Below are positions 1,678-55,640 of a stretch of DNA of 64,000 bases, piece by piece. The translations under genes and the position numbers were made by a program. The first letter of the stretch is position 1, and each line of letters begins with the position of its first letter. Origin of the DNA: Trypanosoma brucei (Eukaryota); contig CM000208.1 of NCBI GenBank assembly GCA_000002445.1, positions 1,472,001-1,536,000 on the forward strand. The letters are read 5' to 3'. The notes beneath the pieces are model-generated. The model made no database searches, was not told the DNA's origin, and saw nothing but the letters and a program-made list of their open reading frames with translations.

Positions 1678-4395
1678 TCAATGATTCTTTGACCTTCTCC
1701 CCCCGCTACCAGGAACGGGTGCATACCGATACAAGGTGTACCCGCTAGGGGTTACCTCCGCTGCACGTAATGTAATACTGGGGAGCTGGGGAATTGTGTA
1801 AGGAACGGGGCGTGTAGGCACCTTTTTAGGGTTAGGGCCTTTGACGTACAACTCTGGCCCAAGGACAACCTTCGATGTGGTGGAAACATTTACACCACTT
1901 CCCCTGTTTGCCTCTGCGTTGACAAAGTACATGATAGAGCTCGCCTCACCGTTTAATACCATCACACGAAGGTAGCGCCAACGTATAAGTGTTCGCTGCC
2001 GCCGCGACTTGGCTGTATCATCTTCACAGCGTGCAAGAGCTGCCTCCATCAACAGATACGCAGCGAGTGATGCGGCCCCTGAAATATTTTCAACCGAAGC
2101 TTGCCCAAACACCTCGAGCGGGAGACGATTGTTCTCTGGAAGCCGCCTTACCTTCATGTTGACCCTGCTAATTGCGTCTATCCTTGAGTGCTGGCTGGTA
2201 TTTTGCTTCTTCTCACGATGCTGCAAGTCGTAGCACCAGTGCTCACGCAGAGCGAAGACGTCCAGATTTTTTTCGTAAAAGAAGTCTCTTGGGATAACAG
2301 GAACATTTGGTCGAATAATTCCAAATAGCCCTCTACCTTGTCTGGGCGACTGCGCTTTCTCGACAACCTTTCCGTCACTCAGCCCCTTTGATTCGCTCGA
2401 GTCGTCATCAGTGAATACGTCCTCGTCGGATCCTCCTACAGAAGACGATTTCTGCGCCTTCCGTGATCTCGAAAACTGCTTACGCTCTTTTTTGTCCTTT
2501 TCCCGTAGCGCCAACACATTCTCAATAACCTTGTCCCTTGTGTCTTGGTAGAAATCCTCCGCCCACGAACGCACCTCCTTCTCACTACGGAGGACTGCTA
2601 CCGGATAGTTTGCATCCGGTAGGTGTTGAGGTTTATTCATTGCATTGTTGGGATGGTACAAGAGGGCGAAATGGTCCTTGCTGTCAACAACTCGGGGTGA
2701 TGGAAACGCCCTTGAGTTGTGCACATCGCTGCTTCTGCGCCTCAAATGTAACGATGTAACACTAACGTCTCTATTTTCTTCTGTACTTGGGGGCGGCATC
2801 GATCCATTCCCCCCTGTCGAGCTTGATGCTGCTTCCGTTGCTTTAGTTTCGGCATCGCTATAATCTGACCGAGAAAATTCATACGCCGACTTGCCAGAAT
2901 TTACATTATCTGTTGTCAGTACAGTCAGAGTAGAGTAAACTGACGCATTCAACAGACTGACAGAGTCAAGCGAGGCAGAATCCATCGGGTTGTCATGAAA
3001 AACCGGAGCCAGTAGGAGTGCAATGCACTCATCAAACAAGCCACCATGCATTAAAATATGTTTCTGATCACCGCCAGATTTCCGTAAAGCTGAGGAGCTG
3101 ATGCACGCATATGCATATTTCCGTTGATACACGGAAACTCCGTTGGAGGAAAATAATGCTGTAACCGATGAGGCCTTCTTATCGTTTGTTGCCCTCCGTC
3201 TCATGCGAGACGACGCCCTCTTCCCACCTTTCCCACTACGAACTTCAGCACGGTACGCCAAAAGGCTGTTAACGACTCGCTTGGGAATTACTACTGGGGT
3301 GAGTGACCAAGTCATGGTTCGAAGCTGGAGGCGAAAGACGGCACAGCCATCAAACTTTACCTTTCCGTCTCCCTCAGGTTCTCTCACAGTGCTAGCGCTC
3401 CTCAGGATAGATCGGGAGGATTGTTGACCTGTCACTGAGGTGGCGGATGAGGGTCGACGATCAAAGTGCTGATGAACCAACGCACCCTCAATCGGTGCCA
3501 TCATAATTGGGAAATAAAACTCCTGGCGCCGTTCGTCGTATATTCCACCAACGCTAATGTGTTCCTCTAAAAAGTGCTCCCAGACAAGGGGCATGCGAAA
3601 AGCTATGGGGCTGCTAGGCGAGACTGCCGTTGTCAACTCTGTCCAGAAGCAGGAGTAGATGTTCATTGCAAAGATGGAAGGCGTGTCTGCAAATCTAGGG
3701 GACCCACAGCTCTTCATCGACATGCCAACGACAATCAGTGAAATAGACTGATGATGATACACCGCATTTACCAACTGCAAGTGAAGTGGATTCACCGAAC
3801 TTGGTCCATGAATTCCTGTCCATGTGCGACTACGAATGTCAAACGAATGAGCAATATATGTGTTGTGCTTCCGCTGATGAAAACCACCTATGACGATCAT
3901 CGCTTGAGTTGGGGGGATAAATACAGCCGCATGCGAAAACACAGGCCCCGGTCCTTGTACGTGTTCGTAACTAACTTTCTCCCACCGCATACTATCTAGG
4001 TTGACAATGTAAAGTTCGTCAAACACTTCCAGCTCCCGATGTCCTCCGAAGACAAACATTTTGTTTTCTACCAAAACGGATGTGTGATTCGCTCGTCCAG
4101 TTGGCACAACACCCACACCCCGGCACTCTTTCCACTGCAGAGTCATCTTCTCATTGCAAAAAATAGAAGACGAGTATGTGCTGTTGGGACCCGTGCCACC
4201 AAAAAGAAACATGTTTGACTTATACACAACGATCGTATGACCTGTGCGTTGAAGCCAAGTTTTTGGCTCCGGAAGGGTTGCCGCTCGAAAGGCGGTTAGG
4301 TGACCACTTTCAGCCTTAGCGGCATCCGCTTCATTGGAGTGGGAACTAATGTATGATCCCCTTCTTCCTTCCCTTTCACTACCTACCCTTTGCAT
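1678..4395 (-). CDS. Kelch-repeat (beta-propeller) domain protein with a long low-complexity C-terminal region.
   Basis: 905-aa ORF. The N-terminal third shows repeated hydrophobic-FGG and W-x-K/V motifs (MFLFGGTGPNS, MFVFGGHRELEVFDELYIVNLDSMRWEKV, MIVIGGF), which are typical of Kelch blades. Confidence 0.6.
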   Translation of the reverse strand: MQRVGSEREGRRGSYISSHSNEADAAKAESGHLTAFRAATLPEPKTWLQRTGHTIVVYKSNMFLFGGTGPNSTYSSSIFCNEKMTLQWKECRGVGVVPTGRANHTSVLVENKMFVFGGHRELEVFDELYIVNLDSMRWEKVSYEHVQGPGPVFSHAAVFIPPTQAMIVIGGFHQRKHNTYIAHSFDIRSRTWTGIHGPSSVNPLHLQLVNAVYHHQSISLIVVGMSMKSCGSPRFADTPSIFAMNIYSCFWTELTTAVSPSSPIAFRMPLVWEHFLEEHISVGGIYDERRQEFYFPIMMAPIEGALVHQHFDRRPSSATSVTGQQSSRSILRSASTVREPEGDGKVKFDGCAVFRLQLRTMTWSLTPVVIPKRVVNSLLAYRAEVRSGKGGKRASSRMRRRATNDKKASSVTALFSSNGVSVYQRKYAYACISSSALRKSGGDQKHILMHGGLFDECIALLLAPVFHDNPMDSASLDSVSLLNASVYSTLTVLTTDNVNSGKSAYEFSRSDYSDAETKATEAASSSTGGNGSMPPPSTEENRDVSVTSLHLRRRSSDVHNSRAFPSPRVVDSKDHFALLYHPNNAMNKPQHLPDANYPVAVLRSEKEVRSWAEDFYQDTRDKVIENVLALREKDKKERKQFSRSRKAQKSSSVGGSDEDVFTDDDSSESKGLSDGKVVEKAQSPRQGRGLFGIIRPNVPVIPRDFFYEKNLDVFALREHWCYDLQHREKKQNTSQHSRIDAISRVNMKVRRLPENNRLPLEVFGQASVENISGAASLAAYLLMEAALARCEDDTAKSRRQRTLIRWRYLRVMVLNGEASSIMYFVNAEANRGSGVNVSTTSKVVLGPELYVKGPNPKKVPTRPVPYTIPQLPSITLRAAEVTPSGYTLYRYAPVPGSGGRRSKNH

Positions 4396-4717
4396 GGTAA
4401 TACAATAAACAACACCAAATTAGTAACTATTCGCTTTTACGCTATGTACCATCACACACTCCCTGAAACAACGACAAGTGCAAGAAAAGGAAACAAAAGT
4501 GAATGCGACTGCAAGAGTTCGTGTACAGTCCAAAAGGTCGAACGAAACCAAAGCAAAATGACGACACCGTTGGATATCCAACCCAAGCACAACCACATAA
4601 CATTATTTAAAAACTTCCATCAGTCGTGAATAATTTCATCGTGCCCGAACGCTAGTCTTCGAGGAGGAGGAGGAGACCCAAATCGACAGATCTTTCATTT
4701 CCTTGATAATTTTCTGT

Positions 4718-6121: not shown

Positions 6122-7328
6122 CCTCGACTCCTCTTTTCTCCCTCCTCCTCCCCTGTTGCTACCGTGGTGGACAGCAGCACCTCACGCATGGCAACATACG
6201 CAGTGCAAGAGTTAACGCATCAAAAAGAGAAGGAAGAGGAAATAACAGCACGATCGAGAAGTGGAGAATCAGCACGTGGAAGCAACAACTGACAATTCAC
6301 TCGATCATGTCGCCCAGCAGCACAAAAACCCGTCACGTGAGATCCAACAAAAAAATTCACTGAGCAATCCCTTTTTTTCTTAGTAATCACACCGAATATG
6401 TTCAGTGCACAAACGAATAAATAATTTATGGTATCTAGGAGGATGTTTCTTTTCTGGTATTCTTTTTTTTTCTTTCGCACTTATCCAAGGATCTATTACA
6501 GCACCACTTTAAATCTCAATCACAACCGCTCCCAACTATTCTAAGGGATCGCAGCATCAGCAGTAACAAAGCAACAGGAAAAGCGGAAGAGCAACGGCGC
6601 CGGTCAACCCCGCCACCGAGCACAACACGCACAAACACTCACACAAACAAACAAACCGTTCACTGGTACCACTACCGGCATCGGCGCTACAACTCAATGC
6701 GGTTTTGTTTTCCCCTTTTCCAGTGACTCTTCCCCCCCCTTTTTTTATTATTTCAATACCGGTGATATTAATGATCTCTAACATATAAACAAATCAAGCA
6801 CAAAAATATGGCATCCCCCATGACCACCTTGTTGCGTAACACTGCATATATATATATTTAAGTATTTATGTAAGTACTTATAAATCTGTGTCGAGGACAA
6901 GGGAACAGTTAACAACAAATAAACGAAACTAAACTACAGAAAAAAAAAAAGTGACACAACAAGTACCAATATAATGGTCAACCAAATTGACAAAGACACG
7001 ACAAAACGTGAAAGGCTGTCGCCATTTGTGTACACACGAAAGGAAAAAGTTATCACTTTCCTTCAGTTCTGTTACCCTTTTTTTTTTCACTGCACGAAGA
7101 CGTGGAATGGAGAAGGAGAGCGAAGGGACCTTTTGTTCTCTTTTGTTTTTGTTTTCTTTTTAAAATCCCCGCTTCAATTCCCCTTCTGCTCCACCCGCCA
7201 TCACAACTAATCCCAACATACACCACCACATATTCTCATCCGTATGCATTTCCAATCTATGTATCTTCTATGGTGATATAACAAGCGAGTGTTTATATCT
7301 CCACATACGAATCAACGGAAAAAAAAAC

Positions 7329-9686
7329 CTATACAACCAACGAGTCCATGTACCTCTGTGCCAAGGACGGATCCAACTCAGCCCGGCGCCGGAAGTGATG
7401 GTCTTCTTTTAGCTTACTCTTTAACAGTTGAAGTTTCTTCATACTCTCTGACGACACTTTCAAGGCACTGAGACGATCCTCACTCTTCTTAGCAGAATTG
7501 TAAAGCTTCTCACACGTTCGATTTCTGGGAATGGAGTGGCCGCGACGCGAAGGTGGCCGCGTTGAAGATCCACTCTCAACATTTGCCTTTCTCCTTCTAA
7601 TCGACGCCGCCGTAGGCTTATTTATGCTAAGAATCGCCTCCTGGCGGTTCCTACTCTGAGGCGAGTTTGTCCGCGGCCTGAAAGTGCACTCAGCCATCTG
7701 CGCTACCTCCATTTGGTTGCGTATAGCATTAAGATTGATTTCACTACGCCGCGCAAGGCGGGCATTAAGCAACTCCTCTTGTTCCCTATTTAGTCGCTTC
7801 GGACGAATATATTCTTGTAGCTTTTCTGGGTCATCGAGGAGTTTGGTACACAATACCGCGGCGCATTCCTCCTCTTCCTGAGGCGTGAGCATGCGTTCGG
7901 AGCTATCAAGGCCCACCTTCCGGAGAACTCGGGTAAACAAGAGTTCCTCCAGTTCCATCTGTTCCCTTTCTTGTCGAGCGCGTTGACGTCGTTCCTCATG
8001 CCATTCCCTAAATTTTGCCGCATCGCTGTACAGACGCTCGTGTAAACCATCATCGAAGCTCGACGAAGGTGTCCTACGTCTCCTTGGCGTACTTCCCTGA
8101 CTACTATGACGTCGGGCGGAGCTCTGTTGGTGCAACCGCTCAAACAGTTCACTACGTTTCCGCTCCACCTCCCTTCGCCGCCGGAGACGCCGCTCCTCAG
8201 TCTCATCGTCTTCACTGAGCAATTGGTTTCTGGCATTTTCTAGGTTCAGGTAAAGAAGCAAACGGGAACGACGCTCATCACGATCACGCCGATTGTTCAT
8301 GTGATACAACCGCACGTGCGGATCACTCAACATTGCCTGCTCCAGCTCCACGTCGAGTGACTGCATCTCGTCACGTACCGCCGTAAGTTCCTTCTCTATT
8401 TTCGCTAGTAACTCCTGACGCTTTTTTTGGCGCACTCGCATCGGTGAGCACGACGACCGGTGCACTTTAAACATCTCTAGTGCAGGGCTGGTAGCATGGG
8501 AGACGTTAGGATTCGTTCCCATCAGATAGTGCTGCGACACTGTCAAATCCGAATATCTAGGGGATGCTAGAAGGCATCTGCTACGTTGCGAATGTGGCGT
8601 ATCGAGCTGCGTATGGGGGCTTGGTCGTCGACTTCCCGTGTTAGACGAAGGTGGCTCATTGTTATAATATCTTGGCTTCCAGTCACCCGCTCTACCACGA
8701 GAATAACTACTCGCATCGGAATTCGTATAGCGTCCTTCACTTCGATGCGAGCCGTAACTCCTACGACCACCGTCGGTTCGTGAGGCACTGCGTATCCCTT
8801 CTCTTCTTCCACTCAGTGGTGTCACACTACCACTCCCGCTTCGTCGGCTCCGCGATGAGTGCCTGCCGCCAGGTCCTCGTCTGCTGTCAAGGCTCGACGC
8901 AGATGAGCACCTGTTACCTCGGAGCCCACGTTGCTCTTGGACTTCATGCTCGAAAAAACAAGATTTCACGGAAGAGCGTTTGATGGGTGTCGCGCTCCCA
9001 GCTCTGCGACGCTCATTTGCCAACCCGGATGAAGCGGGTGTGCCATGACGGACCGCTTCTGCCGGTCGACATGAATTGAGGGGTGCTCCATCTGCGGTGT
9101 CGGTAGACAACTTACTACGATTGGGGCTCAGGAGAGAGGAGGCTGATGTGCCTCGCATGTTAGAGGATGGTTCAACCTCAAACACAATACTTGTCGTGGT
9201 TGGAGACCTGGACAACACTGACTCACCATCGACAAAAGTGAATTTAATGGATGACGCACGATCATCATCATCGACAGCAACAACAGAACTGATATTGCCA
9301 ACAGCATGTTTATTTATCTCGAAGGGCTTCTCAACCTCTGCACTCGTAGGCAGGGTGCCACCCTTGCCATTGAGAGGTTTACTCCGGCCAGCAACATTGG
9401 AGTCAGAAGTCTTATTTGAGCGCTCATGCTTTTGGTCAAACGTGGAGAATTCATCGCCGAGCACTCTCACCGTTGGAGCTGGTACGGAATCGTTCACACA
9501 TTCAAATATTTCTTCCACACTCGCTCCCTCAACCCTATCTTGGGTGACGTCATGAAACCTGTTGCTGTGCGGTGACGGAGCGAGCGAGGGAAGCACCATT
9601 ACGGGAGACACTTGATCCTGTACGGCAACCGCGCCCCGCGGTGGGGGAGGCGTGTCCGGTGTTGACGCACCAGTTTCCCTCGACAA
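7329..9686 (-). CDS. Hypothetical Arg/Ser-rich protein with a charged coiled-coil C-terminal half.
   Basis: 785-aa ORF. It has RS/RR-rich stretches (SRSRRSGSGS, RRLRRRREVERKRSELFERL) and ER/KE-rich predicted coiled coil. Confidence 0.55.
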   Translation of the reverse strand: MSRETGASTPDTPPPPRGAVAVQDQVSPVMVLPSLAPSPHSNRFHDVTQDRVEGASVEEIFECVNDSVPAPTVRVLGDEFSTFDQKHERSNKTSDSNVAGRSKPLNGKGGTLPTSAEVEKPFEINKHAVGNISSVVAVDDDDRASSIKFTFVDGESVLSRSPTTTSIVFEVEPSSNMRGTSASSLLSPNRSKLSTDTADGAPLNSCRPAEAVRHGTPASSGLANERRRAGSATPIKRSSVKSCFFEHEVQEQRGLRGNRCSSASSLDSRRGPGGRHSSRSRRSGSGSVTPLSGRREGIRSASRTDGGRRSYGSHRSEGRYTNSDASSYSRGRAGDWKPRYYNNEPPSSNTGSRRPSPHTQLDTPHSQRSRCLLASPRYSDLTVSQHYLMGTNPNVSHATSPALEMFKVHRSSCSPMRVRQKKRQELLAKIEKELTAVRDEMQSLDVELEQAMLSDPHVRLYHMNNRRDRDERRSRLLLYLNLENARNQLLSEDDETEERRLRRRREVERKRSELFERLHQQSSARRHSSQGSTPRRRRTPSSSFDDGLHERLYSDAAKFREWHEERRQRARQEREQMELEELLFTRVLRKVGLDSSERMLTPQEEEECAAVLCTKLLDDPEKLQEYIRPKRLNREQEELLNARLARRSEINLNAIRNQMEVAQMAECTFRPRTNSPQSRNRQEAILSINKPTAASIRRRKANVESGSSTRPPSRRGHSIPRNRTCEKLYNSAKKSEDRLSALKVSSESMKKLQLLKSKLKEDHHFRRRAELDPSLAQRYMDSLVV

Positions 9687-10102
9687 TACGTGGATGAATC
9701 ATCTTCTGACATCGTTTGAATCCCCATCCGGTAACCCTCCTTCACTGTCTTTTTATGCGATATAAAATGAAACACGGCCACCGCAACGGGTTACGCAGTC
9801 GAGATGCACCAAAAGCGCCAACACTGAGGGATGTGTAATCCTCTCAAACAGCGTAGCTTTCCAAAACTGTAATCACTAAGGAAAAACACGAACAAAGAAA
9901 ATGACGGTAACACTTCACCAAGGAATTAAGGTACGACCGCACAACGCAGCCACAAATGAAGCGGTGTTGTCAGTGAAAATAATAATAATAATAACCGTAC
10001 ATTTACACGTTAATTTCCACCCCCTCCGCCCAACACACACACTTCCCCCATGGTGTTGATAACAAATGGAAAGGGCGCCGTTAAAACATCCGTACCCTAC
10101 AC

Positions 10103-12478: not shown

Positions 12479-12870
12479 ATATAAATAAATAAATAATATA
12501 TATATATATATGCCGCTACTTGGCGTCAGCTATATCAGACAATTCCTCTACTCACTGATGAGGAGAGACAAGTTCTCTTTTTTTTAAAATTTTTATCAAC
12601 TAACCTATCCCTATTAAACGACTTTCAAAGGTAACATATTCATGACAATAACAAAAGCAAATGCCAAAGGCAATAATGAGACAGCTGGTGAGGTACACCC
12701 TATATGCTTCAGGAATAGTAAACCAAAAAGGTATTGCAACATGAGAAAGAAAGCTAAAGAGAAAGACTCAAACAAAAATAGAAGAATGGTAGGTACGTTA
12801 TGGTGTCTCGCTAATCCGAAAGAAAACTAAGAATTTTAAAAAAAAGAGGTGAAAAGCCCAAGAATAAAAA

Positions 12871-12884
12871 AAAAAATATCGCGC
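12871..12884 (-). promoter_or_regulatory. Candidate polypyrimidine tract upstream of the XRN-like gene.
   Basis: A11 run on the + strand within a purine-rich stretch approx 400 nt upstream of the start at 12478. No splice-site mapping is possible from sequence alone. Confidence 0.2.
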
Positions 12885-14033
12885 ACCATCACAATGGAAC
12901 TAACCAAACGACCGAAGCCATCCCTTTATGTAAGGAAAGGAAGAAGAGAAAAAGAGTACAACTGAAAGGGCTTCATGCACATGCTTCCCCTCTAAAAGGC
13001 TTAACCATGGGTTACTAAGGCAGCTAACTATTCCAACCACACACATATTACAGTTAGAGAACAGGAAATGCAACGACCGCGATAATGGCGCCGCTGACAG
13101 CAGGTTTAACGGGCACATTTGGCATGTCATCTACGGCTACTGCAAAACAAAAAGAAGGAAAGAAAGAAAGGAAACAGCAGCAACAACGGAAGCCAAAAAA
13201 ATACACCAAAAATGGATATATACATCCATATAACGCCGCTGATGAGAGAACATACAATAAGAAGAGATAATAACCGCACCATTAGATACCCTAATGCCCG
13301 CACAGAAAAATAAAAAGGAAAACATTATATGGAGGGAGATGTATACCTCTCTACATATATCATATGTTTTGTATATTAAGTATTATATAATATATATTTC
13401 GTACGTATCAAAAACGTTGAATGCTGATAATAATAATAATGATAATCAAGTAGGTGACAAAGGTAACAAGTTGGTGGAGAGCATACACCATGACACCAAC
13501 CCATGGTTACTATGATACCACCAACACCAAATAAACACATACATGCATCTATGTACATAAACTAAATTAAAAGTACATACCATACATATCGATAAGGAGA
13601 AAAACCTACAAATAATATTATTTACTATGAAGCATTAATGACGGCATATAGTCACCGTTCACATCACCGAACTAAACCGCCGGTACATATCAATGGCTTC
13701 AAAAACTCAATCACAGGAATGACAATAAAAAACAAAACAAACAAAAAAAGGAAAAAACCAACGATAAACCTAAAAAGGAAAGAAAAACAACAACCCTTAG
13801 GGAAATAAAATTACATTGCCTTTCCACAGACATTCCAACCCAGAACATCTTAAATACAGAAAAAGAGAAAAAAATCAAATAATCGAAAATAAAAACAAAA
13901 CTACAAATCAATGAAAAGAAATATTAACCAGCAGCGAACACAAAAAAATAGAGAAAAAGAAAACAACAAATCTTAAACCGTACAGTCACAAAAAATAAAA
14001 CATTATAAATTCAAAAGGAAAAAGTATAAAGCT

Positions 14034-15506
14034 TTACAATCCAAGAACCTCCTGTATTTTCTGCATCCATGCATCACGCTTAGCAGGGCTACGGGCTTGA
14101 AAAAGAAGACGCCTCCCTGCCTTGAAAGCAACAGCGAACACGTTAGGAGCGTTGGAGCCGGTATACTTGCTCGGCACCGGGAATACATCCTCCAGGTCCG
14201 TGAATGGAGTGGCAATACACTGCCGTTGCAAAGTGTCTTTTGAAATGGCAAGCACAAGGTGAAGACTCTTAAACTTCGGAAGCTTCCCAACACTAAGGTC
14301 CTCACCATTCTCGAGCTCAGCACGGATGCACAGGTATCGTCGCTTCCATGACATGTCACTACTCTGTTTCTTTATTATACCCTCATACAGTGTCACGTCA
14401 CCAAGGCCACTGCAGGGAGTTGCACCCTCCAGTACCGCAGTGGATATCGCGGTACTGTACGATTCATCCATCTGCTTAACAACACTTCGTTTGTCAGCTC
14501 GTAGTAGTTGCTTAATGTTACGGATATCGGAAGGAATCACGTCACGTAGTGGACCTTCAAATGCTGGTTGTGTTTGCACAATCTCAAGCAAACCAGACAT
14601 AAACAGTTTGCAGATGGGCATATCCAACAACTTCCCACTGCAAGGTCGCTGCTTAGGATCACTGCTCAACAAAAGGGAAACAATTTCAGCCATCTCGGGA
14701 CTCGTTTCAGGTGGTAACGGATCGTACTGTCCGCTCAGGGTTCTATTCATCACATCACGCATACTCTCCCCATCAAAAGGACGCCTGAGTGTCAACAGTT
14801 CATATAAGAGGACACCAAGAGAGAACAAGTCGGCTTTCTTGCTGTATGGTTTCCGACGCCAAATCTCCGGTGCAACGTAATATGGCGTACCACAGAACGT
14901 CTTTCCAACATCATCAGAGACTGTCGCAGAATACATTTTGGTGAATCCAAAGTCTCCAAGCTTTATTAGGCCGTTGCTGCACAGGAGGATGTTCGCTGAC
15001 TTGATATCACGATGGATCATATGCCGCGAGTGTACATGATGAAGTGCAAGGAGAACCTGAATGAACAACAACCCAGCCTCATGCTCACGGAATGCGCGTG
15101 ATGTTTTTGCACGGCTTTTGATTTCCTGCCGGAGGTCTCCAGCATTTGCGTAGTCGAGCACCAGTGCTATCATCAGCACATTCACCTCATTCTGTGGATC
15201 TTTCTTTGCAAAGTCCTCATGGCACTTCAGGATTGAAAAGAAATCACAGTTCATCAAACAGTGTACCTCAGCCTGTGCGCGGTTTTTGTCTCCTTCGTTC
15301 ATACCTTCCAAGTCCACAACCTTCACTGCAAACGTTTCACCATCGGACGTCCGTTTGGCACACAACACCGTACCGGTGGCACCTGAACCCAGAACCCGTT
15401 TAATCCAATATTTCTTCTTCTGCTCTTTCGCTGTGGCTTCGTCTTTTGCGAAAGCCTCACCGAAGGTGCGGCACACACGCCCAATCATTGCATCCGTTGA
15501 CGACAT
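14034..15506 (-). CDS. NIMA-related (NEK-type) Ser/Thr protein kinase with a C-terminal PH domain, tandem copy 1.
   Basis: The full set of kinase motifs is present: glycine loop LGSGATGTV, FAVKVVDL (VAIK Lys), HRDIKSANILL, DFG and YVAPE. The C-terminal approx 110 aa (WKRRYLCIRAELENG...DAWMQKIQEV) has the PH-domain pattern. It resembles the T. brucei NRK/NEK (possibly NEK17-like) tandem family. Confidence 0.85.
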   Translation of the reverse strand: MSSTDAMIGRVCRTFGEAFAKDEATAKEQKKKYWIKRVLGSGATGTVLCAKRTSDGETFAVKVVDLEGMNEGDKNRAQAEVHCLMNCDFFSILKCHEDFAKKDPQNEVNVLMIALVLDYANAGDLRQEIKSRAKTSRAFREHEAGLLFIQVLLALHHVHSRHMIHRDIKSANILLCSNGLIKLGDFGFTKMYSATVSDDVGKTFCGTPYYVAPEIWRRKPYSKKADLFSLGVLLYELLTLRRPFDGESMRDVMNRTLSGQYDPLPPETSPEMAEIVSLLLSSDPKQRPCSGKLLDMPICKLFMSGLLEIVQTQPAFEGPLRDVIPSDIRNIKQLLRADKRSVVKQMDESYSTAISTAVLEGATPCSGLGDVTLYEGIIKKQSSDMSWKRRYLCIRAELENGEDLSVGKLPKFKSLHLVLAISKDTLQRQCIATPFTDLEDVFPVPSKYTGSNAPNVFAVAFKAGRRLLFQARSPAKRDAWMQKIQEVLGL

Positions 15507-15510
15507 TCCA
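14041..15510 (-). repeat. Tandem duplication unit A (period 2170 bp). Homology is confined to the NEK coding sequence.
   Basis: The sequence from 14041 matches the sequence from 16211 nearly base for base through the start codon (15506 and 17676). The flanks diverge immediately outside the CDS. Confidence 0.9.
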
Positions 15511-16191
15511 AACTACGTGTTATGTTCCCTAATGGAAGCACTTCTAGGTGCTTAGCAGAACTTTGACAGGGACAAAAAGATATTGTAGCAGAGGAATACA
15601 AAACAAAACAGAGAATTAGAGGCGTATTTATGTCGTTATATTTTTCTCTTAGGCTTAATATATGATAGAAGTAATGCTTGACGCGTGATGTACGGCTTTA
15701 CACTTTGGTTAAGCAGTCGTACCAAACTGTATTTGAACGTACGAGTCACCCAACATATACGGATACACACTCGCACGCAACATATTTCAATTTTCGAACA
15801 GCAATAAAGCTTACGACAGAGAATCGCTCGAAAGCATTCGCCTTCTTCCGCGGAGTATATTTTGCTAGATGTAATAGATTACATGATTCACCAAGGAAAG
15901 ACAACAGCTGAGTAGTTATACACGAACATATGATATGTAGCGTAATACTAACAGACTAAAAATGGAAAGCCATCTCCTTCTTTAAAGAAAAATACGACAT
16001 TGAAACAAGCTATACAAAATACACAAGTATTCCCTACCCTAGAACACCCCGATTATATAGAGGGAAAGAGTAAGAGAGGAAAGCATCTCATGCGGCAATA
16101 ATACGCCGCGCATATTCGCGTATATATAGTTATATATGCCCTCACAAACGCGAGGAAGGGTAAACACGTTGCGGCGCAGGAGTGGCACGGT

Positions 16192-17676
16192 TCACTCAGC
16201 ATCACCAATGCCAAGAACCTCCTGTATTTTCTGCATCCATGCGTCACGCTCAGGAGTGCCGCGGGCTTGAAAAAGAAGACGTGAACCTCCGACAAATACA
16301 ACAGCGAACACGTTAGGAGCGTTGGAGCCGGTATACTTGCTCGGCACCGGGAATACATCCTCCAGGTCCGTGAATGGAGTGGCAATACACTGCCGTTGCA
16401 AAGTGTCTTTTGAAATGGCAAGCACAAGGTGAAGACTCTTAAACTTCGGAAGCTTCCCAACACTAAGGTCCTCACCATTCTCGAGCTCAGCACGGATGCA
16501 CAGGTATCGTCGCTTCCATGACATGTCACTACTCTGTTTCTTTATTATACCCTCATACAGTGTCACGTCACCAAGGCCACTGCAGGAAGTTGCACCCTCC
16601 AGTACCGCAGTGGATATCGCGGCACTGTACGATTCATCCATTTGATTTACAATGCTTCTTTTCTCAGCTCGTAGTAGTTGCTTAATGTTACGGATATCGG
16701 AAGGAATCACGTCACGTAGTGGACCTTCAAAGCCCGGTTGTGTTTGCACAATCTCAAGCAAACCAGACATAAACAGTTTGCAGATGGGCATATCCAACAA
16801 CTTCCCACTGCAAGGTCGCTGCTTAGGATCACTGCTCAACAAAAGGGAAACAATTTCAGCCATCTCGGGACTCGTTTCAGGTGGTAACGGATCGTACTGT
16901 CCGCTCAGGGTTCTATTCATCACATCACGCATACTCTCCCCATCAAAAGGACGCCTGAGTGTCAACAGTTCATATAAGAGGACACCAAGAGAGAACAAGT
17001 CGGCTTTCTTGCTGTATGGTTTCCGACGCCAAATCTCCGGTGCAACGTAATATGGCGTACCACAGAACGTCTTTCCAACATCATCAGAGACTGTCGCAGA
17101 ATACATTTTGGTGAATCCAAAGTCTCCAAGCTTTATTAGGCCGTTGCTGCACAGGAGGATGTTCGCTGACTTGATATCACGATGGATCATATGCCGCGAG
17201 TGTACATGATGAAGTGCAAGGAGAACCTGAATGAACAACAACCCAGCCTCATGCTCACGGAACGTGCGTGAAGCTTTTGCACGGCTTTTGATTTCCTGCC
17301 GGAGGTCTCCAGCATTTGCGTAGTCGAGCACCAGTGCTATCATCAGCACATTCACCTCATTCTGTGGATCTTTCTTCGCAAAGTCCTCATGGCACTTCAG
17401 GATTGAAAAGAAATCACAGTTCATCAAACAGTGTACCTCAGCCTGTGCGCGGTTTTTGTCTCCTTCGTTCATACCTTCCAAGTCCACAACCTTCACTGCA
17501 AACGTTTCACCATCGGACGTCCGTTTGGCACACAACACCGTACCGGTGGCACCTGAACCCAGAACCCGTTTAATCCAATATTTCTTCTTCTGCTCTTTCG
17601 CTGTGGCTTCGTCTTTTGCGAAAGCCTCACCGAAGGTGCGGCACACACGCCCAATCATTGCATCCGTTGACGACAT
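16192..17676 (-). CDS. NIMA-related (NEK-type) Ser/Thr protein kinase with a C-terminal PH domain, tandem copy 2.
   Basis: 494 aa and about 98% identical to copy 1 over the CDS. It differs at a handful of residues, and its C-terminal tail is ...GIGDAE where copy 1 has ...GL. Confidence 0.85.
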   Translation of the reverse strand: MSSTDAMIGRVCRTFGEAFAKDEATAKEQKKKYWIKRVLGSGATGTVLCAKRTSDGETFAVKVVDLEGMNEGDKNRAQAEVHCLMNCDFFSILKCHEDFAKKDPQNEVNVLMIALVLDYANAGDLRQEIKSRAKASRTFREHEAGLLFIQVLLALHHVHSRHMIHRDIKSANILLCSNGLIKLGDFGFTKMYSATVSDDVGKTFCGTPYYVAPEIWRRKPYSKKADLFSLGVLLYELLTLRRPFDGESMRDVMNRTLSGQYDPLPPETSPEMAEIVSLLLSSDPKQRPCSGKLLDMPICKLFMSGLLEIVQTQPGFEGPLRDVIPSDIRNIKQLLRAEKRSIVNQMDESYSAAISTAVLEGATSCSGLGDVTLYEGIIKKQSSDMSWKRRYLCIRAELENGEDLSVGKLPKFKSLHLVLAISKDTLQRQCIATPFTDLEDVFPVPSKYTGSNAPNVFAVVFVGGSRLLFQARGTPERDAWMQKIQEVLGIGDAE

Positions 17677-17680
17677 TTTA
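16211..17680 (-). repeat. Tandem duplication unit B, the partner of 14041..15510.
   Basis: Direct comparison with copy A. The 3' UTR and upstream regions are unique to each copy. Confidence 0.9.
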
Positions 17681-18050
17681 AATTATTAAATGTTAGCTAC
17701 TAATTCATAAATTAGAAAGAGCGTTGAAGAATTTTTTTTTGATGGGTGGTGGGGAAGTGTAATGTTTTTGAATTGTATGTTCGTTGTATCACAGTTTTAT
17801 TATTTTCATCGATGTTTCGCTATCGATGATGGTGTCGGTCTTGTGATTTTATTAGATTCTTCAAAGCGGGTCTCACTTTTATTATTATTTGGAGTGGCTG
17901 AACCGCACTTTTCTGTTGGTTATGCGATGAACGAAGTATATGCTGGGTTCTTCACTGTTATTAAGTCTCCTTTGTGAACGAAACCAGAGGCGTATCCGAC
18001 GTCTGCAATATTCGTATCACGCTGTTTATATTCGTTATTGTTTAAAATGC

Positions 18051-18062
18051 AAAAAAAAAAGA
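18051..18062 (-). promoter_or_regulatory. Candidate polypyrimidine tract (U10 on the sense strand) that could serve trans-splicing of NEK copy 2.
   Basis: An A10 run on the + strand lies approx 380 nt upstream of the ATG at 17676. More purine-rich + strand sequence (aggaaaggaaaggaaac) lies just beyond. This is a positional inference only. Confidence 0.25.
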
Positions 18063-18320
18063 TGATTTAGAACTTTCCGGTCAAAATGAGAATCCCCGAA
18101 ACTTACCACACCGCTGAATTATAAATAGCAGAGGAAAGGAAAGGAAACAAATGGGAGTTTACTTGGCGACGTATATAATAAATGACTTTCGGTTGGTCCG
18201 TTCAACAGCGCCTGCTTGCTGAAACAAATTCTCGCATTTTGATTTGCAATCAGTTTTTCCTTACGAGGAGTGTGCCACGCATTATCCTGGAATATCTATC
18301 GCAGAATATCTCACTAACCT

Positions 18321-18352
18321 TAGATGTATAATAATAATAATAATAATAATAA
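18321..18352. repeat. (ATA)n trinucleotide microsatellite.
   Basis: ataataataataataataataat. Confidence 0.9.
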
Positions 18353-19316
18353 TGTAATAACACTGTTGTTACGCATTAAATGATGAAGGGAGAAAAAAAA
18401 CATTTAGTGGCACTAGGAGCAGGAAACACGGAAATTTTGTTTACACATTCATCTGAATACAAATACAAAATAAATAAATATATATATATATGCAACATTA
18501 TAGTTCACGCGTTCCACGGAGTGACAGAGGCATGTGTGGGCAAATGACGAAAAATTATTCGATTCCTTCCCATTTAAAAACAGAAAAAAATGCTTGTCAC
18601 GCCTCAAAAATTCTTCCTTTTTCCCTTTTGTGTGTGTGTGTTTTGGAGAAGGGGGAAGAGGGGGGAAAGGAAAGGTTTGAATGGGGGTTGGAGCGAACGG
18701 GGCGACAAACAGTGAAGACGCAAAAGCAGAAAACACAAACACATAAACACAAAAAAAAAAGGATTCACAGTTTTTTTTTAAAAAAAAGACAGCTGGGACT
18801 GAGATAACACGTTAACGGAATTTTCTGCCATTTGTAATCTCCAGTCCTTCCACAGACACACACACACACACACCCTTCCTCTCCTCTTCACCACGTTGGC
18901 ACAAGAAAAAGAAAACACGCACAAATATACATTTCATTTTAGACGAACATAAAACCATTCACAAGCATCAAGACTTCACAAACCCCTCAAAAAAAAAAAA
19001 ATCATAATAACAGTTTTTCTTTTTTAAGCCCTTTCATGAAACTACCGAGATTCAAAATGGGTGCCCTCCACATGATAAAACACTTTTCCTCCTCCTCCGC
19101 CCCCCCCCTTTTCTTTTTCATTTATTTTTTTTTGTTTTTTTTGTTTTACTTCGCCCACCTTTAACCAAATATTCCTCATGTAACACAAAGATACGCGCGT
19201 AAGTAAAAATAAAAATAAATTCGAACTCAACATAAAGGTAAGGAAACACCTACAAGGGTAGAAACATATGCGATAACACATTCCCTCAAAGGTACATGAG
19301 CTAAAGCAATGGGAAG

Positions 19317-19415
19317 GTGAAAAGTAATGGATTGTGTTCGGGTTCGGGGCGTGGGTTTGGGTTCGGGGCGTGGGATGTGGGATGTGCGATGTGGGGAAAC
19401 AAAACAAAACAAAAC
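19317..19415. repeat. G-rich degenerate tandem repeat (GGGTTCGGGGCGTGGG x2, GGGATGTG x3) followed by (AAAAC)6.
   Basis: gtgttcgggttcggggcgtgggtttgggttcggggcgtgggatgtgggatgtgcgatgtggggaaacaaaacaaaacaaaacaaaaac. It has 4 or more G-tracts of 3 or more. Confidence 0.8.
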
Positions 19416-20889
19416 AAAAACGAATTGATGAAGTAACGTGAGATTTTCATAAATGAGTTATCGCATACGCAAAAAACAAAAAAAACAACATATTCCCAAA
19501 CACGGAAAGCAACAGCGACAACAAGCACGACAAGAGAGGAAACGATTAACATTGACAACTAATAAAATAGGGAGTAAAGGGTTGTGCGTGACTGCGTGTT
19601 CGCGTTTGCTTGTTCGTAAGTGAGTAGAGGTGGGATATAAAATAAACATAAATTTTATAAAGCAAAACAAAGGACAAACAAGCAAATGAGAAACAGAAAT
19701 GTAAGGGAATAAAGAGGAATGAAAAAAAAAACAAAAAACAAAAAAAAAGAAGATAACATGCAACAAGTAGTGTTACGCAGCAAACACAACTGCACGTTGG
19801 GTGGGTAGCCAAACAGAGCAAAAATCATATGCGCCCACGCAAAAGGTTTAAAAAAAAACCAAAAGGGAGAGGGGGGAAAAAAGGAGAAAAAAGAAAGCAA
19901 CTAAAAAAAAAGTTTAAAAAGCAATAATTTAAACATAAAAAATGGAGAGGAACGAACGGCCACCGTTTTTTTTTTCCCTCTTCCACAAGTAGAGAGAAGA
20001 GCACACGCTCATAAAATGATGGGGGAAGAGTGGTTAGAAATTTAACTACCCAATACCCACATCTTTATGAAATTGACAACCCAATAAGTTTGAAATAACG
20101 TGAAAAGAAAAAAAAGGAGGGGAGAGTAGGGAATAGAAGGATGGAACTCTGTTTCAGGGACATTTCATTCAGTAAACAAATACTTAAACGCCTATTTCCT
20201 TTCAACAGAAAGCTAAACCCGCATTATTAACCATAACCCTCAAAGGGAGAGCACAAAAAGTTGTCGTAGTAATAATGATAGCAATGTACACCTATCTTGT
20301 TATTTCTTTTTCTTTTCCTTTCTTTCTTTTTTATAAAAAAAAAAAAAAGAAAAATGTTCGCTTTCTTTCCTCACCAAAACACAACAATTTACCTTACCTC
20401 CTTCATATTTTCTTGATCCTATCCCGTGATCCACGCCCCCCCCCCCATATTTCCCTTTTCCCCCTCAAAAACAAAAAACATAACGTCGTCCTTGTTTGCT
20501 AAATAATGACAGCAACAGGCAACACATTTCACTACAAACGCTGTGACACAACATTCTTATTTGGCACCGCACGTCACCACTCAACGGTCCACAACATTAA
20601 CAACAATGGCGATGCACAATACAGGTGCATGCGTAATATTTCCTTTTCTATATATGAATAAATAGGCATGACAAGAGACGCATTTACTGATATCACTCTA
20701 TCTATCACATTCCACCTGGATTTTTGCGGCGAGCAACCACACGGTGTAATGCCGTTGTTTATTCAACAAAAAAAAAACAAAGTCCTCTTTATCCCCTTCA
20801 TTTTTTTCCCAGACCCCAATTTTTCCCTCCGCCTATAAATAAGTAAAAAAAAACCAACCAAACAAACAAACATTTCTTGTGTTAACCCG

Positions 20890-22269
20890 TCACTCTTCAT
20901 TATTATCATCATGATCCCCTTCTGGGGAAGGAACTGGATGCCGGGCACTGCTGCACGCACTAAATATTTGTGGAGCCCCTTTTCGCTTGATACTTGCGCA
21001 CAGCTTCACCTTAACGACATTAAAATCACCTATCATTGGAGCCCGCCCTCCCCGCTGCTTCTTCAGCTCCAGCCATAGCTCCAGGAACTGAAATAAGCAA
21101 CCAACATAATATTCACAGCACGTAATTAAAAAAGGAAATTCACGCCGCAGGGTTTCCTCACACTGCGGATGCAACGGTAGAGGGGATATGTTTTGCTTAC
21201 CCCCTCTACCTTCACCACCAGAACTTCGCGCTCGCCGCATCATCTCTGCATGAGTTCGTGTATCCTTCAGCTGATCAAGTACCACACCGGTAAAATTAAA
21301 TCCGATTAAAACAAACGGAAGCTCCTCAAAAACGTTGTCACCATCCTCCCCCTTTTTTATACACGTGTCCCACAAGCGAAAACCGAATGCTCTATAGTAC
21401 TCAAGAAGAAACACTAACTGCAACAAACCAAACAACCCCGTAGAGCGAAGGTCAGTTGCCGGATCACTCCCTTGAAACCCAAGCTTCTCCCACTCATTCC
21501 AGACATTGCCATTGTGCTCCTCGGCGTCACGAATCAATACATTGCGAAGTGTTATGAGCAGCCGTCGGTGAATGGGATTACTGTGGTCAAATGGCATAGA
21601 AGGAAGTGTTGAGCAAAAATCCACATCCTGCTGGAGAACCTGTTTCGGATTTTTGGGATCTATGGGAGCATCCGCGTTGGTTTGACTGTCGAGTGATGAG
21701 GAGCTGTTACAACAAAAGAACACTTTTCTCAGGAAACCACGCAACCGAAGACATCGCCCCCTCCCCCGTGCACGCAGTGGTATCGCATATGGTTCCCATG
21801 AGGATCTGTCATGCTTTAACGCACGAACCGCGTCAACAAAACTAATGGAACGAAAAGACTCACCAGTGTCAGCATGACTCAAACTCATGACGCTAAGCAC
21901 CCGCCTCATCGTTGCGTCATTAACATCATCCCAGTCAATCGATGGCACAGAAGAGTCGCATTTTCTACTTTTGGACTCCCTCTCAGACTCTGAGTATTTG
22001 TGGCGTGAGGTATCTGCTATAACAACATTACCTGTAATGCTTTCAGAGGGAGAAAATGCTTCGGGAAACGCATCCTCACTTGCCTTCAGGCTTTGCACAC
22101 AACCCATTACAACATTGCCATGAAGTTGCTGCTCCAACTGCAGTTGCAACTGCTGCTGGTGTTGCTGATCTAATTCGCAAGGTGTCGCAATAATATCATC
22201 AGAATTTCTATAGCTTAACACAACGGCATCCGGTGAAACAACGGTTAGGTCGGTGGACGAAGTTCCCAT
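20890..22269 (-). CDS. ELMO/CED-12 domain-containing protein.
   Basis: The segment WEKLGFQGSDPATDLRSTGLFGLLQLVFLLEYY...FVLIGFNFTGVVLDQL fits the ELMOD core motif (FQG-DP-TDFRG-G-LxL). Confidence 0.65.
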   Translation of the reverse strand: MGTSSTDLTVVSPDAVVLSYRNSDDIIATPCELDQQHQQQLQLQLEQQLHGNVVMGCVQSLKASEDAFPEAFSPSESITGNVVIADTSRHKYSESERESKSRKCDSSVPSIDWDDVNDATMRRVLSVMSLSHADTGESFRSISFVDAVRALKHDRSSWEPYAIPLRARGRGRCLRLRGFLRKVFFCCNSSSSLDSQTNADAPIDPKNPKQVLQQDVDFCSTLPSMPFDHSNPIHRRLLITLRNVLIRDAEEHNGNVWNEWEKLGFQGSDPATDLRSTGLFGLLQLVFLLEYYRAFGFRLWDTCIKKGEDGDNVFEELPFVLIGFNFTGVVLDQLKDTRTHAEMMRRARSSGGEGRGGKQNISPLPLHPQCEETLRREFPFLITCCEYYVGCLFQFLELWLELKKQRGGRAPMIGDFNVVKVKLCASIKRKGAPQIFSACSSARHPVPSPEGDHDDNNEE

Positions 22270-55283: not shown

Positions 55284-55640
55284 CATTATTGTTTCTTTAT
55301 TACGGATCCCACAGACTCCACAAATATATAAGTACAGTCAAATCGGAGAAGAGTAGTGAGATGGCACCGCTTTATGGCGAAAGTATAGGTAGGCGTCGCG
55401 TGTTCACATTGCGAGGACGGACGGTACATCGGCACCCCTCCTTTACTATCAGTTACCTTATTTCACAGGGCAGGCACGGCTGAGGTGACCGGGTTGGCCA
55501 CAGTTGTAGCATGCGCGTCCACCACCAGCAGCAGCACCGCCAGCAGCAGCGTCAGCAGGGGCATTCGGGCACTCACGGGCAATATGACCCTCCTGTTGAC
55601 AGTGGTAGCACGCACGGCCACCACCCATATTTCCGCCACG
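55284..55640 (-). repeat. Block duplicated between the two UMSBP genes: the C-terminal knuckles plus approx 175 bp of 3' flank.
   Basis: 55284-55515 is essentially identical to 57150-57380 (attattgtttctttattacggatcccacagactccacaaatatataag...). Identity continues into the last approx 60 codons with a small indel. Confidence 0.85.

What the first reader, a model, noticed from the sequence alone, without database searches (positions are those of the whole stretch)
14034..17680. Tandem NEK-PH kinase paralogs homogenised only within the CDS, with distinct C-terminal tails
Two complete NEK-type kinase genes with a C-terminal PH domain sit 2170 bp apart. The copies are nearly identical from the start codon to the last few codons. 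Identity stops abruptly at both CDS boundaries, so the 5' and 3' UTRs are unique. The C-termini differ (...AVAFKAGRRLLFQARSPAKRDAWMQKIQEVLGL versus ...AVVFVGGSRLLFQARGTPERDAWMQKIQEVLGIGDAE), and a few internal residues differ. This pattern is typical of ongoing gene conversion restricted to coding sequence while divergent UTRs allow differential post-transcriptional regulation. The tail differences fall inside the PH domain's last strand and helix and could alter lipid or partner binding. The copy number here (2) may be an assembly collapse of a larger array.
Basis: seen in the sequence. Interest (0 to 1): 0.5.

Follow-up and report, generated by a model that had tools for sequence, protein, structure and literature searches.

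The report
Known trypanosome NEK17 kinase gene array
These are two copies of the already described NEK17 kinase gene cluster of Trypanosoma brucei, kept nearly identical by copying between neighbours, and this assembly probably shows two copies where the current reference has three.

Summary
Two minus-strand genes, 14034-15506 (490 aa) and 16192-17676 (494 aa), lie 2170 nt apart. They are 97.7% identical over 1473 nt, and their flanks cannot be aligned. Both encode a NEK-type kinase with a C-terminal PH domain.

They match T. brucei TREU927 proteins EAN78009 and EAN78010 exactly. The 494-aa copy fits Tb927.10.5950 (NEK17), a published promoter of stumpy-form differentiation in the quorum-sensing pathway. 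[quoted passage not shown]

Gene conversion is well supported:
- Synonymous divergence (dS) is about 0 over most of the gene but 0.45 in the last 31 codons.
- The longest identical run is 527 nt (P<1e-5).
- Both copies share strain-specific variants.
- Patches of sequence switch type between T. brucei subspecies.
- In other trypanosomatids the kinase domain groups by species, while the C-terminal part keeps ancient paralog types.

The suspected copy-number collapse also looks right. Reference v5.1 coordinates place about 2.65 kb more DNA in this interval, and T. b. gambiense has a mosaic middle copy.

Whether the distinct UTRs and tails change function was not tested. Overall this is an ordinary, already known locus.

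The parts
16192..17676 (-). NEK17 copy B, 494 aa, fitting Tb927.10.5950. Kinase domain at about 16786-17574, PH domain at about 16213-16566. It keeps the conserved acidic tail ...LGIGDAE.
   Evidence: ORF. Pfam Pkinase and PH. Exact match to EAN78010.1/XP_822838.1. Tb927.10.5950 is listed as 494 aa, 1485 nt, minus strand in v5.1.
14034..15506 (-). NEK17 copy A, 490 aa, the last copy of the array (presumably Tb927.10.5930; this is inferred). Kinase domain at about 14616-15404, PH domain at about 14043-14396. Its tail is truncated to ...LGL. It may be a chimera of the middle and last copies if the assembly is collapsed.
   Evidence: ORF. Pfam. Exact match to EAN78009.1/XP_822837.1. Secondary structure from the AF2 model.
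15507..16191 (-). Intergenic region IG1 (685 nt). It holds copy B's 3' UTR and copy A's trans-splicing region and 5' UTR. It has no similarity to the regions upstream of B or downstream of A.
   Evidence: It is 98.5% identical to the B-to-middle-copy spacer of T. b. gambiense.
16072..16191 (-). The first ~116-120 nt after copy B's stop codon. In T. b. gambiense and T. equiperdum OVI the same sequence follows the middle copy, so homology extends beyond the CDS there.
15507..15633 (-). The last 127 nt before copy A's ATG, with a pyrimidine-rich tract (CTCTAATTCTCTGTTTTGTTTTGTATTCCTCTGCT) and downstream AGs. This is the likely spliced-leader acceptor region. In T. b. gambiense it is shared by the middle copy and copy A.
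   Evidence: The role in splicing is inferred from sequence only.
14037..14129 (-). Old, unconverted 3' patch of copy A (codons 460-490). It covers the beta6-beta7 hairpin, the start of the C-terminal helix and the end of the protein. The matching patch in copy B is 16195-16299.
   Evidence: dS 0.45 and dN/dS 0.44. The differences at codons 460-465 and 489-end stay copy-specific in T. b. brucei, T. b. gambiense and T. equiperdum, whereas codons 472-476 are B-type in T. equiperdum copy A. Structure.
12479..14033 (-). Unique region downstream of copy A (its 3' UTR plus the processing signals of the next gene, 791 aa).
17677..20889 (-). Unique 3.2-kb region upstream of copy B, reaching back to the ELMO-domain gene (Tb927.10.5960). 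It has many pyrimidine tracts and no remnant of other NEK genes.

Best explanation
The region is the NEK17 tandem array on chromosome 10 of Trypanosoma brucei brucei TREU927 (Tb927.10.5930-5950). Each gene encodes a NIMA-related Ser/Thr kinase with a C-terminal PH domain. Published work shows that NEK17 promotes the density-dependent change from slender to stumpy forms, and that it loses phosphorylation on activation-loop Thr195 when MEKK1 is deleted.

The array is ancient, with 2-4 syntenic copies in other trypanosomatids. The copies evolve in concert. Repeated short-tract gene conversion between neighbouring paralogs erases divergence inside the coding region. The flanks diverged long ago and offer no homology, so conversion tracts stop at or just inside the CDS ends. 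That leaves an old, divergent patch at the 3' edge (codons 460-490) and unrelated UTRs.

Shown here: the identity of the genes, the mosaic pattern, the signs of conversion, and the copy-number discrepancy.

Inferred: the window comes from the older two-copy assembly version, in which the middle copy and its spacer were lost by collapse. Copy A may therefore be a chimera of the middle and last copies. It is also inferred that the distinct UTRs give each copy its own mRNA processing and stability, as is usual in trypanosomes, which transcribe genes in long polycistronic units.
For: **Identity**
- Both proteins match TREU927 entries exactly.
- Tb927.10.5950 is 494 aa on the minus strand, with the phosphopeptide MYSATVSDDVGK; T195 is present here.
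- NEK17 is described as three almost identical genes that RNAi cannot tell apart.
- The best solved-structure relatives are NEK1 (E=3.8e-48), NEK7 and NEK2.
- Pfam finds Pkinase and PH. The AF2 model has a kinase fold followed by a 7-strand, one-helix PH fold.

**Gene conversion**
- The 35 nucleotide differences in the first 1467 nt are clustered. The longest identical run is 527 nt, against a mean of 167 and a maximum of 498 in 100,000 permutations.
- dS is 0 in codons 139-313 and 373-459, but 0.45 in codons 460-490.
- Orthologous UTRs are about 98% identical between T. b. brucei and T. b. gambiense, while paralogous UTRs cannot be aligned.
- At nt 729 and 753 both brucei copies carry T/T and both gambiense copies carry G/C.
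- Patches at codons 138, 314-315, 338-352 and 472-476 change type between strains.
- The gambiense middle copy is a mosaic of A-type and B-type variants.
- In T. melophagium, T. grayi and Leishmania, kinase domains cluster by species or type. The linker and PH region separates into two ancient types, and chimeric genes exist.
- T. congolense has two adjacent copies with the same pattern.

**Copy number**
- The interval from Tb927.10.5910 to Tb927.10.5950 is 11510 nt in v5.1 and 8863 nt here.
- T. b. gambiense reads B, IG1, middle copy (with a 100-N gap), IG2, A.
- The T. equiperdum OVI contig ends in IG2 and the 3' end of an upstream copy.
Against: - No sequencing reads were available, so the true copy number in the strain behind this window was not measured.
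- The T. equiperdum IVM-t1 assembly is collinear with the window and has two copies. It rests on only about 7,500 PacBio reads plus short reads, and its chromosomes were built on the TREU927 reference, so it is weak evidence either way.
- Other intergenic intervals also differ between the window and v5.1. In two of them the window agrees with T. b. gambiense rather than with v5.1. v5.1 is therefore not simply the better version everywhere.
- The assignment of copy A to Tb927.10.5930 is inferred, not checked.
- The persistence of the 3' patch could reflect selection rather than an edge effect of conversion.
Confidence: 0.88

Rival explanations
1. The two-copy state is real for this strain or haplotype. 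An unequal crossover between the middle and last copies of a three-copy array deleted one unit, so nothing is wrong with the assembly. Array size would then simply vary among T. brucei genomes.
For: The structure B, IG1, CDS, A 3' UTR is exactly what an unequal crossover inside the CDS would produce. The IVM-t1 assembly also shows two copies. The T. b. gambiense genome paper reports copy-number differences in tandem arrays between subspecies, and says assembled repeat numbers can be arbitrary. A NEK17-like gene, Tb11.v5.0190, sits on an unplaced 'bin' contig of TREU927. That could be a second haplotype.
Against: The later TREU927 reference (v5.1) and the literature give three genes for the same strain. 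The IVM-t1 assembly is of low quality and was built on the reference.
Confidence: 0.22
2. The copies are young products of a recent duplication. They have had little time to diverge, and no gene conversion is needed.
For: Overall identity is high at 97.7%.
Against: A recent duplication would also copy the flanking sequence, but the flanks cannot be aligned, while each is about 98% conserved with its ortholog in T. b. gambiense. dS reaches 0.45 in the last 31 codons against 0 elsewhere. Syntenic arrays exist in T. congolense, T. melophagium, T. grayi and Leishmania. Both copies share strain-specific variants.
Confidence: 0.04
3. Strong purifying selection on the nucleotide sequence itself (codon usage or RNA structure) keeps the two CDSs identical, without any recombination.
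For: Overall dN/dS is 0.36, which shows constraint on the protein.
Against: Selection cannot explain zero synonymous differences over 527 nt when orthologs in T. b. gambiense differ at synonymous sites that are shared by both copies within each genome (nt 729, 753). It also cannot explain patches that swap type between strains.
Confidence: 0.03
4. The duplication is an assembly artefact. Two alleles of a single gene were placed in tandem.
For: None beyond the general difficulty of assembling repeats.
Against: The 685-nt spacer joining the copies is unique, and the independent T. b. gambiense assembly recovers it. Tandem copies are also found in T. congolense, T. melophagium and T. grayi. The literature treats the locus as a multi-copy cluster.
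Confidence: 0.01

Closest known systems
NEK17 gene cluster of T. brucei (Tb927.10.5930/5940/5950), a component of the stumpy-induction quorum-sensing pathway (Mony et al. 2014; McDonald et al. 2018, PMC6034907)
   Same: It is the same locus. The protein matches are exact, and the 494-aa length and strand agree for Tb927.10.5950. The Thr195 activation-loop phosphopeptide is present. The neighbours are the same: ELMO-domain gene Tb927.10.5960, then Tb927.10.5910 and Tb927.10.5890.
   Different: The published cluster and reference v5.1 have three genes, and the window has two. The papers call the genes 'almost identical' and do not describe the copy-specific tail, the beta6-beta7 changes or the UTR differences.
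Concerted evolution of T. brucei tandem gene arrays (Jackson 2007, PMC1855330; Jackson et al. 2010, PMC2854126)
   Same: Both show sequence mosaics made by gene conversion between tandem duplicates, mosaics specific to one subspecies, and terminal copies with shortened or different flanks and C-termini.
   Different: Those surveys dealt with arrays of more than 3 annotated copies, and this kinase pair was not found in the text I searched. Here the non-coding parts are unrelated while the CDS is homogenised. The 2007 survey saw non-coding regions more variable than the CDS only in histone arrays.
Phosphoglycerate kinase (PGK A/B/C) array of T. brucei
   Same: It is a three-gene tandem array in which the middle copy is a chimera of the outer two, made by gene conversion. 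A different C-terminus gives isoforms with different behaviour (as cited in PMC1855330).
   Different: In PGK the C-terminal difference has a proven effect on targeting (glycosomal versus cytosolic). For NEK17 no functional difference between copies has been shown.
Human NEK1, NEK2 and NEK7 kinases
   Same: Their catalytic domains are the closest solved relatives (E=3.8e-48 to 1e-35). The HRD and DFG motifs and a GTPYY-type activation segment are present.
   Different: In the matches seen here the kinase-plus-PH arrangement appeared only in kinetoplastid and other protist relatives. The PDB matches to human NEKs covered the kinase domain only.

Membership tests
NEK (NIMA-related) protein kinases | An N-terminal eukaryotic Ser/Thr kinase catalytic domain with intact catalytic motifs | tested here: met
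   Pfam PF00069 E=1.1e-54 over residues 35-297. HRDIKSAN, DFG and K62 are present, and these positions are invariant in the 64-sequence alignment.
NEK (NIMA-related) protein kinases | The catalytic domain is closer to NEKs than to other kinase groups | tested here: met
   Top PDB matches are NEK1 (3.8e-48), NEK7 (about 1e-37) and NEK2 (about 1e-35), ahead of MARK, RSK and PLK4. One PKR-fusion chain (6npy_B, 6.2e-38) ranks second. One source names the gambiense protein 'NEK family, HsNEK1-like'. No formal kinome phylogeny was made.
PH-domain proteins | A seven-stranded beta sandwich capped by a C-terminal helix carrying an invariant Trp | tested here: met
   Pfam PF00169 scores 30.8 and 29.1 bits against a cutoff of 25.1. 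The AF2 model has strands 371-381, 387-398, 412-420, 430-434, 438-444, 456-461 and 466-470, and helix 474-488. W480 is invariant, as are W387, K388 and R390 of the beta1-beta2 basic motif.
PH-domain proteins | Binding of phosphoinositides or a protein partner | not testable with these tools
   This needs lipid-binding or localisation experiments.
T. brucei NEK17 (Tb927.10.5930-5950) | Sequence and genomic position identical to the annotated genes | tested here: met
   Exact matches to EAN78009.1 and EAN78010.1. Tb927.10.5950 is 494 aa, 1485 nt, minus strand. The flanking genes Tb927.10.5890 (905 aa), 5910 (756 aa) and 5960 (459 aa, ELMO) match window ORFs in order and length.
T. brucei NEK17 (Tb927.10.5930-5950) | Three gene copies | tested here: not met
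   Only two copies are in the window. v5.1 has 2647 nt more in this interval. This reflects assembly version or copy-number variation, not a different locus.
Tandem array under concerted evolution by gene conversion | A mosaic, non-random distribution of differences between paralogs, with uneven synonymous divergence | tested here: met
   Longest identical run 527 nt, P<1e-5. dS ranges from 0 to 0.45 between segments.
Tandem array under concerted evolution by gene conversion | Paralogs within a genome share variants that are absent from their orthologs in a sister lineage | tested here: met
   nt 729 and 753, and the patches that switch type among T. b. brucei, T. b. gambiense and T. equiperdum. 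Kinase domains cluster by species while the C-terminal region clusters by paralog type.
Tandem array under concerted evolution by gene conversion | Direct observation of conversion events | not testable with these tools
   This would need population long-read data or experimental evolution.

The most novel reading that the evidence does not exclude
The NEK17 copies may not be interchangeable. Against a background of frequent gene conversion, each keeps its own set of derived changes at positions that are otherwise conserved across trypanosomatid NEK17-like kinases.

- Copy B, and the middle copy in T. b. gambiense, lost the two basic residues of the beta6-beta7 hairpin (K462V, R465S). These positions are K/R in 33 of 35 relatives.
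- Copy A reversed the charge at residue 476 (E/D in 33 of 35) and lost the conserved acidic tail GIGDxE.

Combined with unrelated UTRs, this could give isoforms of a quorum-sensing kinase that differ in expression stage and in membrane or partner binding. The 3' patch would then be held by selection, not just spared because it lies at the edge of the homology.
Probability: 0.18. Interest if true: 0.45.

Novelty: already known. Interest (0 to 1): 0.15.

Why it matters
NEK17 acts in the pathway that decides when bloodstream trypanosomes stop dividing and become transmissible. Experiments so far treat the copies as one gene: RNAi hits all of them, and only Tb927.10.5950 was over-expressed.

In practice, anyone using this assembly version should know that the array is probably under-represented. 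Copy A may be a chimera, and reads or peptides cannot be assigned to a copy except through the last ~100 nt and the UTRs.

The copy-specific PH-domain and tail changes suggest a cheap experiment. The locus itself and the mechanism that homogenises it are textbook for trypanosome tandem arrays.

Tried and rejected
- Looked for a third copy or pseudogene remnants in the window, using tblastn with NEK17 and with the five T. melophagium array proteins. Nothing was found beyond the two copies.
- Exact-protein contig look-ups for the two TREU927 proteins returned nothing, so the TREU927 record itself could not be fetched.
- The IVM-t1 'long-read' assembly looked like independent support for two copies. 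I discounted it after reading how it was made.
- The Rfam scan of the whole window found no RNA families. Tandem Repeats Finder found only trivial repeats in the intergenic regions.
- Searching for NEK17.1, NEK17.2 and NEK17.3 in the literature returned no papers, so no copy-specific study was found.
- Jackson 2007 was searched for this array, and the kinase pair was not found in the text I searched.
- Positive selection on the tail was considered and not supported: dN/dS is 0.44.
Full report
**1. What is in the sequence**

The finding's interval holds two ORFs on the minus strand: 14034..15506 (490 aa, 'copy A') and 16192..17676 (494 aa, 'copy B'). The repeat finder gives a start-to-start spacing of 2170 nt.

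BLASTN of the two units, flanks included, returns one real match: window 15507-14037 against 17677-16206, 97.7% identity over 1473 nt. In a global alignment with 450-nt flanks, identity per 50-nt bin is 35-50% upstream, which is the level of a forced alignment. It is 100% from the ATG onward and 22-60% after codon 490.

At the 5' side the homology ends one base before the ATG. At the 3' side it ends 4-5 codons before B's stop codon, so A's stop codon comes from non-homologous sequence. There are 35 nucleotide differences in the first 1467 nt, and they are clustered at codons 100, 135-138, 314-315, 338-364 and 460-490. A tblastn search and a self-BLAST find no further copy in the 64 kb.

**2. 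What the genes are**

Both proteins carry a protein kinase domain (PF00069, E about 1e-54, residues 35-297). Both also carry a PH domain (PF00169, 30.8 and 29.1 bits, above the 25.1-bit cutoff, residues 374-487). The closest proteins with solved structures are human NEK1 (E=3.8e-48), NEK7 and NEK2.

An AlphaFold2 model built on 64 relatives has mean pLDDT 87.6 and pTM 0.87. It shows a kinase fold, a helical linker (partly low confidence at 343-354), and a canonical PH fold: seven strands and helix 474-488.

Both sequences match Trypanosoma brucei brucei TREU927 proteins EAN78009.1 (490 aa) and EAN78010.1 (494 aa) exactly. Those proteins sit on a 4,054,025-bp record.

McDonald et al. [quoted passage not shown] They show that over-expressing Tb927.10.5950 drives growth arrest and stumpy formation in a way that depends on RBP7 and YAK. 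They also show that activation-loop Thr195 loses phosphorylation in MEKK1 null mutants. Their supplement lists Tb927.10.5950 as 494 aa at Tb927_10_v5.1:1491040-1492524(-), with the phosphopeptide MYSATVSDDVGK. Copy B has that length and strand, and residues 191-202 of both copies are that peptide.

The flanking genes in the supplement also match window ORFs in order and length:

| Gene | Length in supplement | Window ORF |
|---|---|---|
| Tb927.10.5890 | 905 aa | 1678..4395 |
| Tb927.10.5910 | 756 aa | 7329..9686 (ORF listed from a TTG) |
| Tb927.10.5960 | 459 aa, ELMO domain | 20890..22269 |

The locus is therefore the known NEK17 array.

**3. Why the copies look like this: gene conversion**

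Four lines of evidence point to concerted evolution rather than a young duplication.

- **(a) Divergence is uneven.** The longest identical run is 527 nt. In 100,000 random placements of the same 35 differences, the mean longest run was 167 and the largest was 498. Nei-Gojobori dS by segment:

| Codons | dS |
|---|---|
| 1-298 | 0.015 |
| 139-313 | 0 |
| 299-372 | 0.12 |
| 373-459 | 0 |
| 460-490 | 0.45 |

  Part of the gene is therefore old and the rest was recently made uniform. dN/dS is 0.36 overall and 0.44 in the tail, so nothing suggests positive selection.

- **(b) The flanks are old and distinct.** Each UTR is about 98% identical to its ortholog in T. b. gambiense DAL972. The UTRs of the two paralogs cannot be aligned.

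- **(c) Strains differ in ways only conversion explains**.
  - At nt 729 and 753 both brucei copies carry T/T and both gambiense copies carry G/C.
  - The patch at codons 338-352 is A-type only in brucei copy A. It is B-type in gambiense A and in T. equiperdum A.
  - Codons 138 and 314-315 are B-type only in brucei copy B.
  - Codons 472-476 are B-type in T. equiperdum copy A.
  - Only codon 135, codons 460-465 and the extreme 3' end stay copy-specific in all three genomes.

- **(d) The whole family behaves this way.**
  - T. melophagium has four NEK17 genes plus a divergent 727-aa NEK-PH gene between the ELMO gene and the 790-aa gene. T. congolense has two adjacent genes. T. grayi has two genes on one 4.2-kb contig.
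  - In neighbour-joining trees, the kinase domains of the T. melophagium and T. grayi paralogs cluster by species. The linker and PH region splits into two ancient types shared with Leishmania (…CKLFMSGLLEIVQ… and …CKLYLSVV.EIV…). Leishmania proteins combine N- and C-terminal types in all four ways.
  - T. brucei, T. congolense and T. vivax have only the first type among the hits seen.

Concerted evolution of T. brucei tandem arrays, including mosaics specific to one subspecies and the chimeric middle gene of the PGK array, is already documented (PMC1855330; PMC2854126).

**4. Copy number**

The window has two copies and the literature has three. From the v5.1 coordinates, the interval from the low end of Tb927.10.5910 to the low end of Tb927.10.5950 is 11510 nt. 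In the window it is 8863 nt, so v5.1 holds 2647 nt more, about one repeat unit.

T. b. gambiense DAL972 reads B(494), IG1, middle copy (interrupted by a 100-N gap), IG2, A(490). The middle copy has:
- the A-type 5' flank (the last ~120-127 nt);
- a B-type tail (…VFVGGSRLLFQARGTPERD…GIGDAE);
- B's first ~116 nt of 3' UTR, followed by about 750 nt of unique spacer;
- a mixture of A-type and B-type variants in its linker.

The T. equiperdum OVI contig breaks inside the same IG2 and upstream-copy junction.

The window's arrangement (B, IG1, CDS, A 3' UTR) is what results if the middle and last copies are merged within the CDS, either by an assembler or by an unequal crossover. I judge collapse in an older assembly version the more likely cause, at roughly 0.7 against 0.2. 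I could not test this with reads.

The two-copy T. equiperdum IVM-t1 assembly is weak evidence. It used about 7,500 PacBio reads plus short reads, and its chromosomes were built on TREU927. v5.1 is also not uniformly the longer version. Between Tb927.10.5890 and Tb927.10.5910 the window is 694 nt longer than v5.1. Between Tb927.10.5950 and Tb927.10.5960 it is 576 nt shorter. In both intervals the window agrees with T. b. gambiense.

**5. The differences between the copies**

In the model, the C-terminal differences fall as follows:
- residue 460 at the end of beta6;
- residues 462, 463 and 465 in the beta6-beta7 turn;
- residue 473 just before the helix;
- residues 474-476 in the first turn of the C-terminal helix;
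- residue 490 and B's four extra residues beyond the helix.

The canonical basic motif of beta1-beta2 (K380…W387-K388-R389-R390) is identical in both copies, and W387, K388 and R390 are invariant across relatives.

Among 35 NEK17-like relatives, position 462 is K/R in 33, position 465 is K/R in 33, and position 476 is E/D in 33. Most relatives end in an acidic GIGD/E tail. Copy B lost both basic residues (V462, S465). Copy A has K476 and lost the acidic tail. Each copy therefore carries its own derived changes at conserved positions. In general knowledge of PH domains, the beta6-beta7 loop lies on the face that often binds lipid, so an effect on binding is conceivable. That is inference only.

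The 127 nt upstream of A's ATG contain a pyrimidine-rich tract and AG dinucleotides, which fits a spliced-leader acceptor. The nearest long pyrimidine tract upstream of B is about 375 nt from its ATG. Different UTRs are the normal route to copy-specific regulation in trypanosomes. I found no data on copy-specific NEK17 expression.

**6. Verdict**

The locus is a well-known, already named gene cluster, and the mechanism is the standard one for trypanosome tandem arrays.

The small additions here are the tract-level evidence for ongoing conversion in NEK17, the structure of the missing middle copy, and the complementary derived changes in the PH domain and tail. Novelty: already known. Interest: low.

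Noticed in passing
window 55458-56234 (-) and 57322-57744 (-): A second tandem pair. Two CCHC zinc-knuckle proteins (UMSBP-like, with repeated 'RACYNCGQPGHFSRECPN' units) have 3' parts that are 91% identical over 431 nt. Each gene also has internal ~96-nt repeats.
   Followed up: no
window 4395-7329 and 17676-20890, compared with Tb927_10_v5.1 coordinates: Intergenic lengths differ between this window and reference v5.1 in both directions. The window is 694 nt longer between Tb927.10.5890 and 5910, and 576 nt shorter between 5950 and 5960. In both intervals the window agrees with T. b. gambiense DAL972, so the two TREU927 versions differ by more than the NEK17 copy.
   Followed up: partly
L003 (T. 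melophagium JAJSEB010000048.1) 3268-14978: The syntenic locus holds five NEK-PH kinase genes: a divergent 727-aa gene, a 499-aa gene with the second ancient C-terminal type, and genes of 497, 497 and 496 aa. All four NEK17-like copies have identical N-termini. T. brucei has no remnant of the 727-aa gene or of the second-type gene in the 3.2 kb upstream of copy B.
   Followed up: partly
Supplement of PMC6034907: Tb11.v5.0190 to Tb11.v5.0194 on Tb927_11_bin_v5.1: An unplaced 'bin' contig of TREU927 carries a NEK17-like kinase (Tb11.v5.0190), an ELMO-gene twin (Tb11.v5.0191) and a twin of Tb927.10.6000 (Tb11.v5.0194). It appears to be a second haplotype or an unresolved contig that starts in the NEK17 array.
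   Followed up: no
window 14037-14129 and 16195-16299: The two copies carry complementary derived changes at conserved positions. Copy B lost K462 and R465. Copy A has K476 and lost the conserved acidic tail GIGDxE. Each of these positions is conserved in 33 of 35 relatives.
   Followed up: partly
L001 (T. b. gambiense FN554973.1) 7325-9012: In DAL972 the middle NEK17 copy is annotated as three fragments (107, 179 and 199 aa). The cause is a 100-N gap and frameshifted, probably low-quality sequence just after the gap. It may well be an intact gene.
   Followed up: partly
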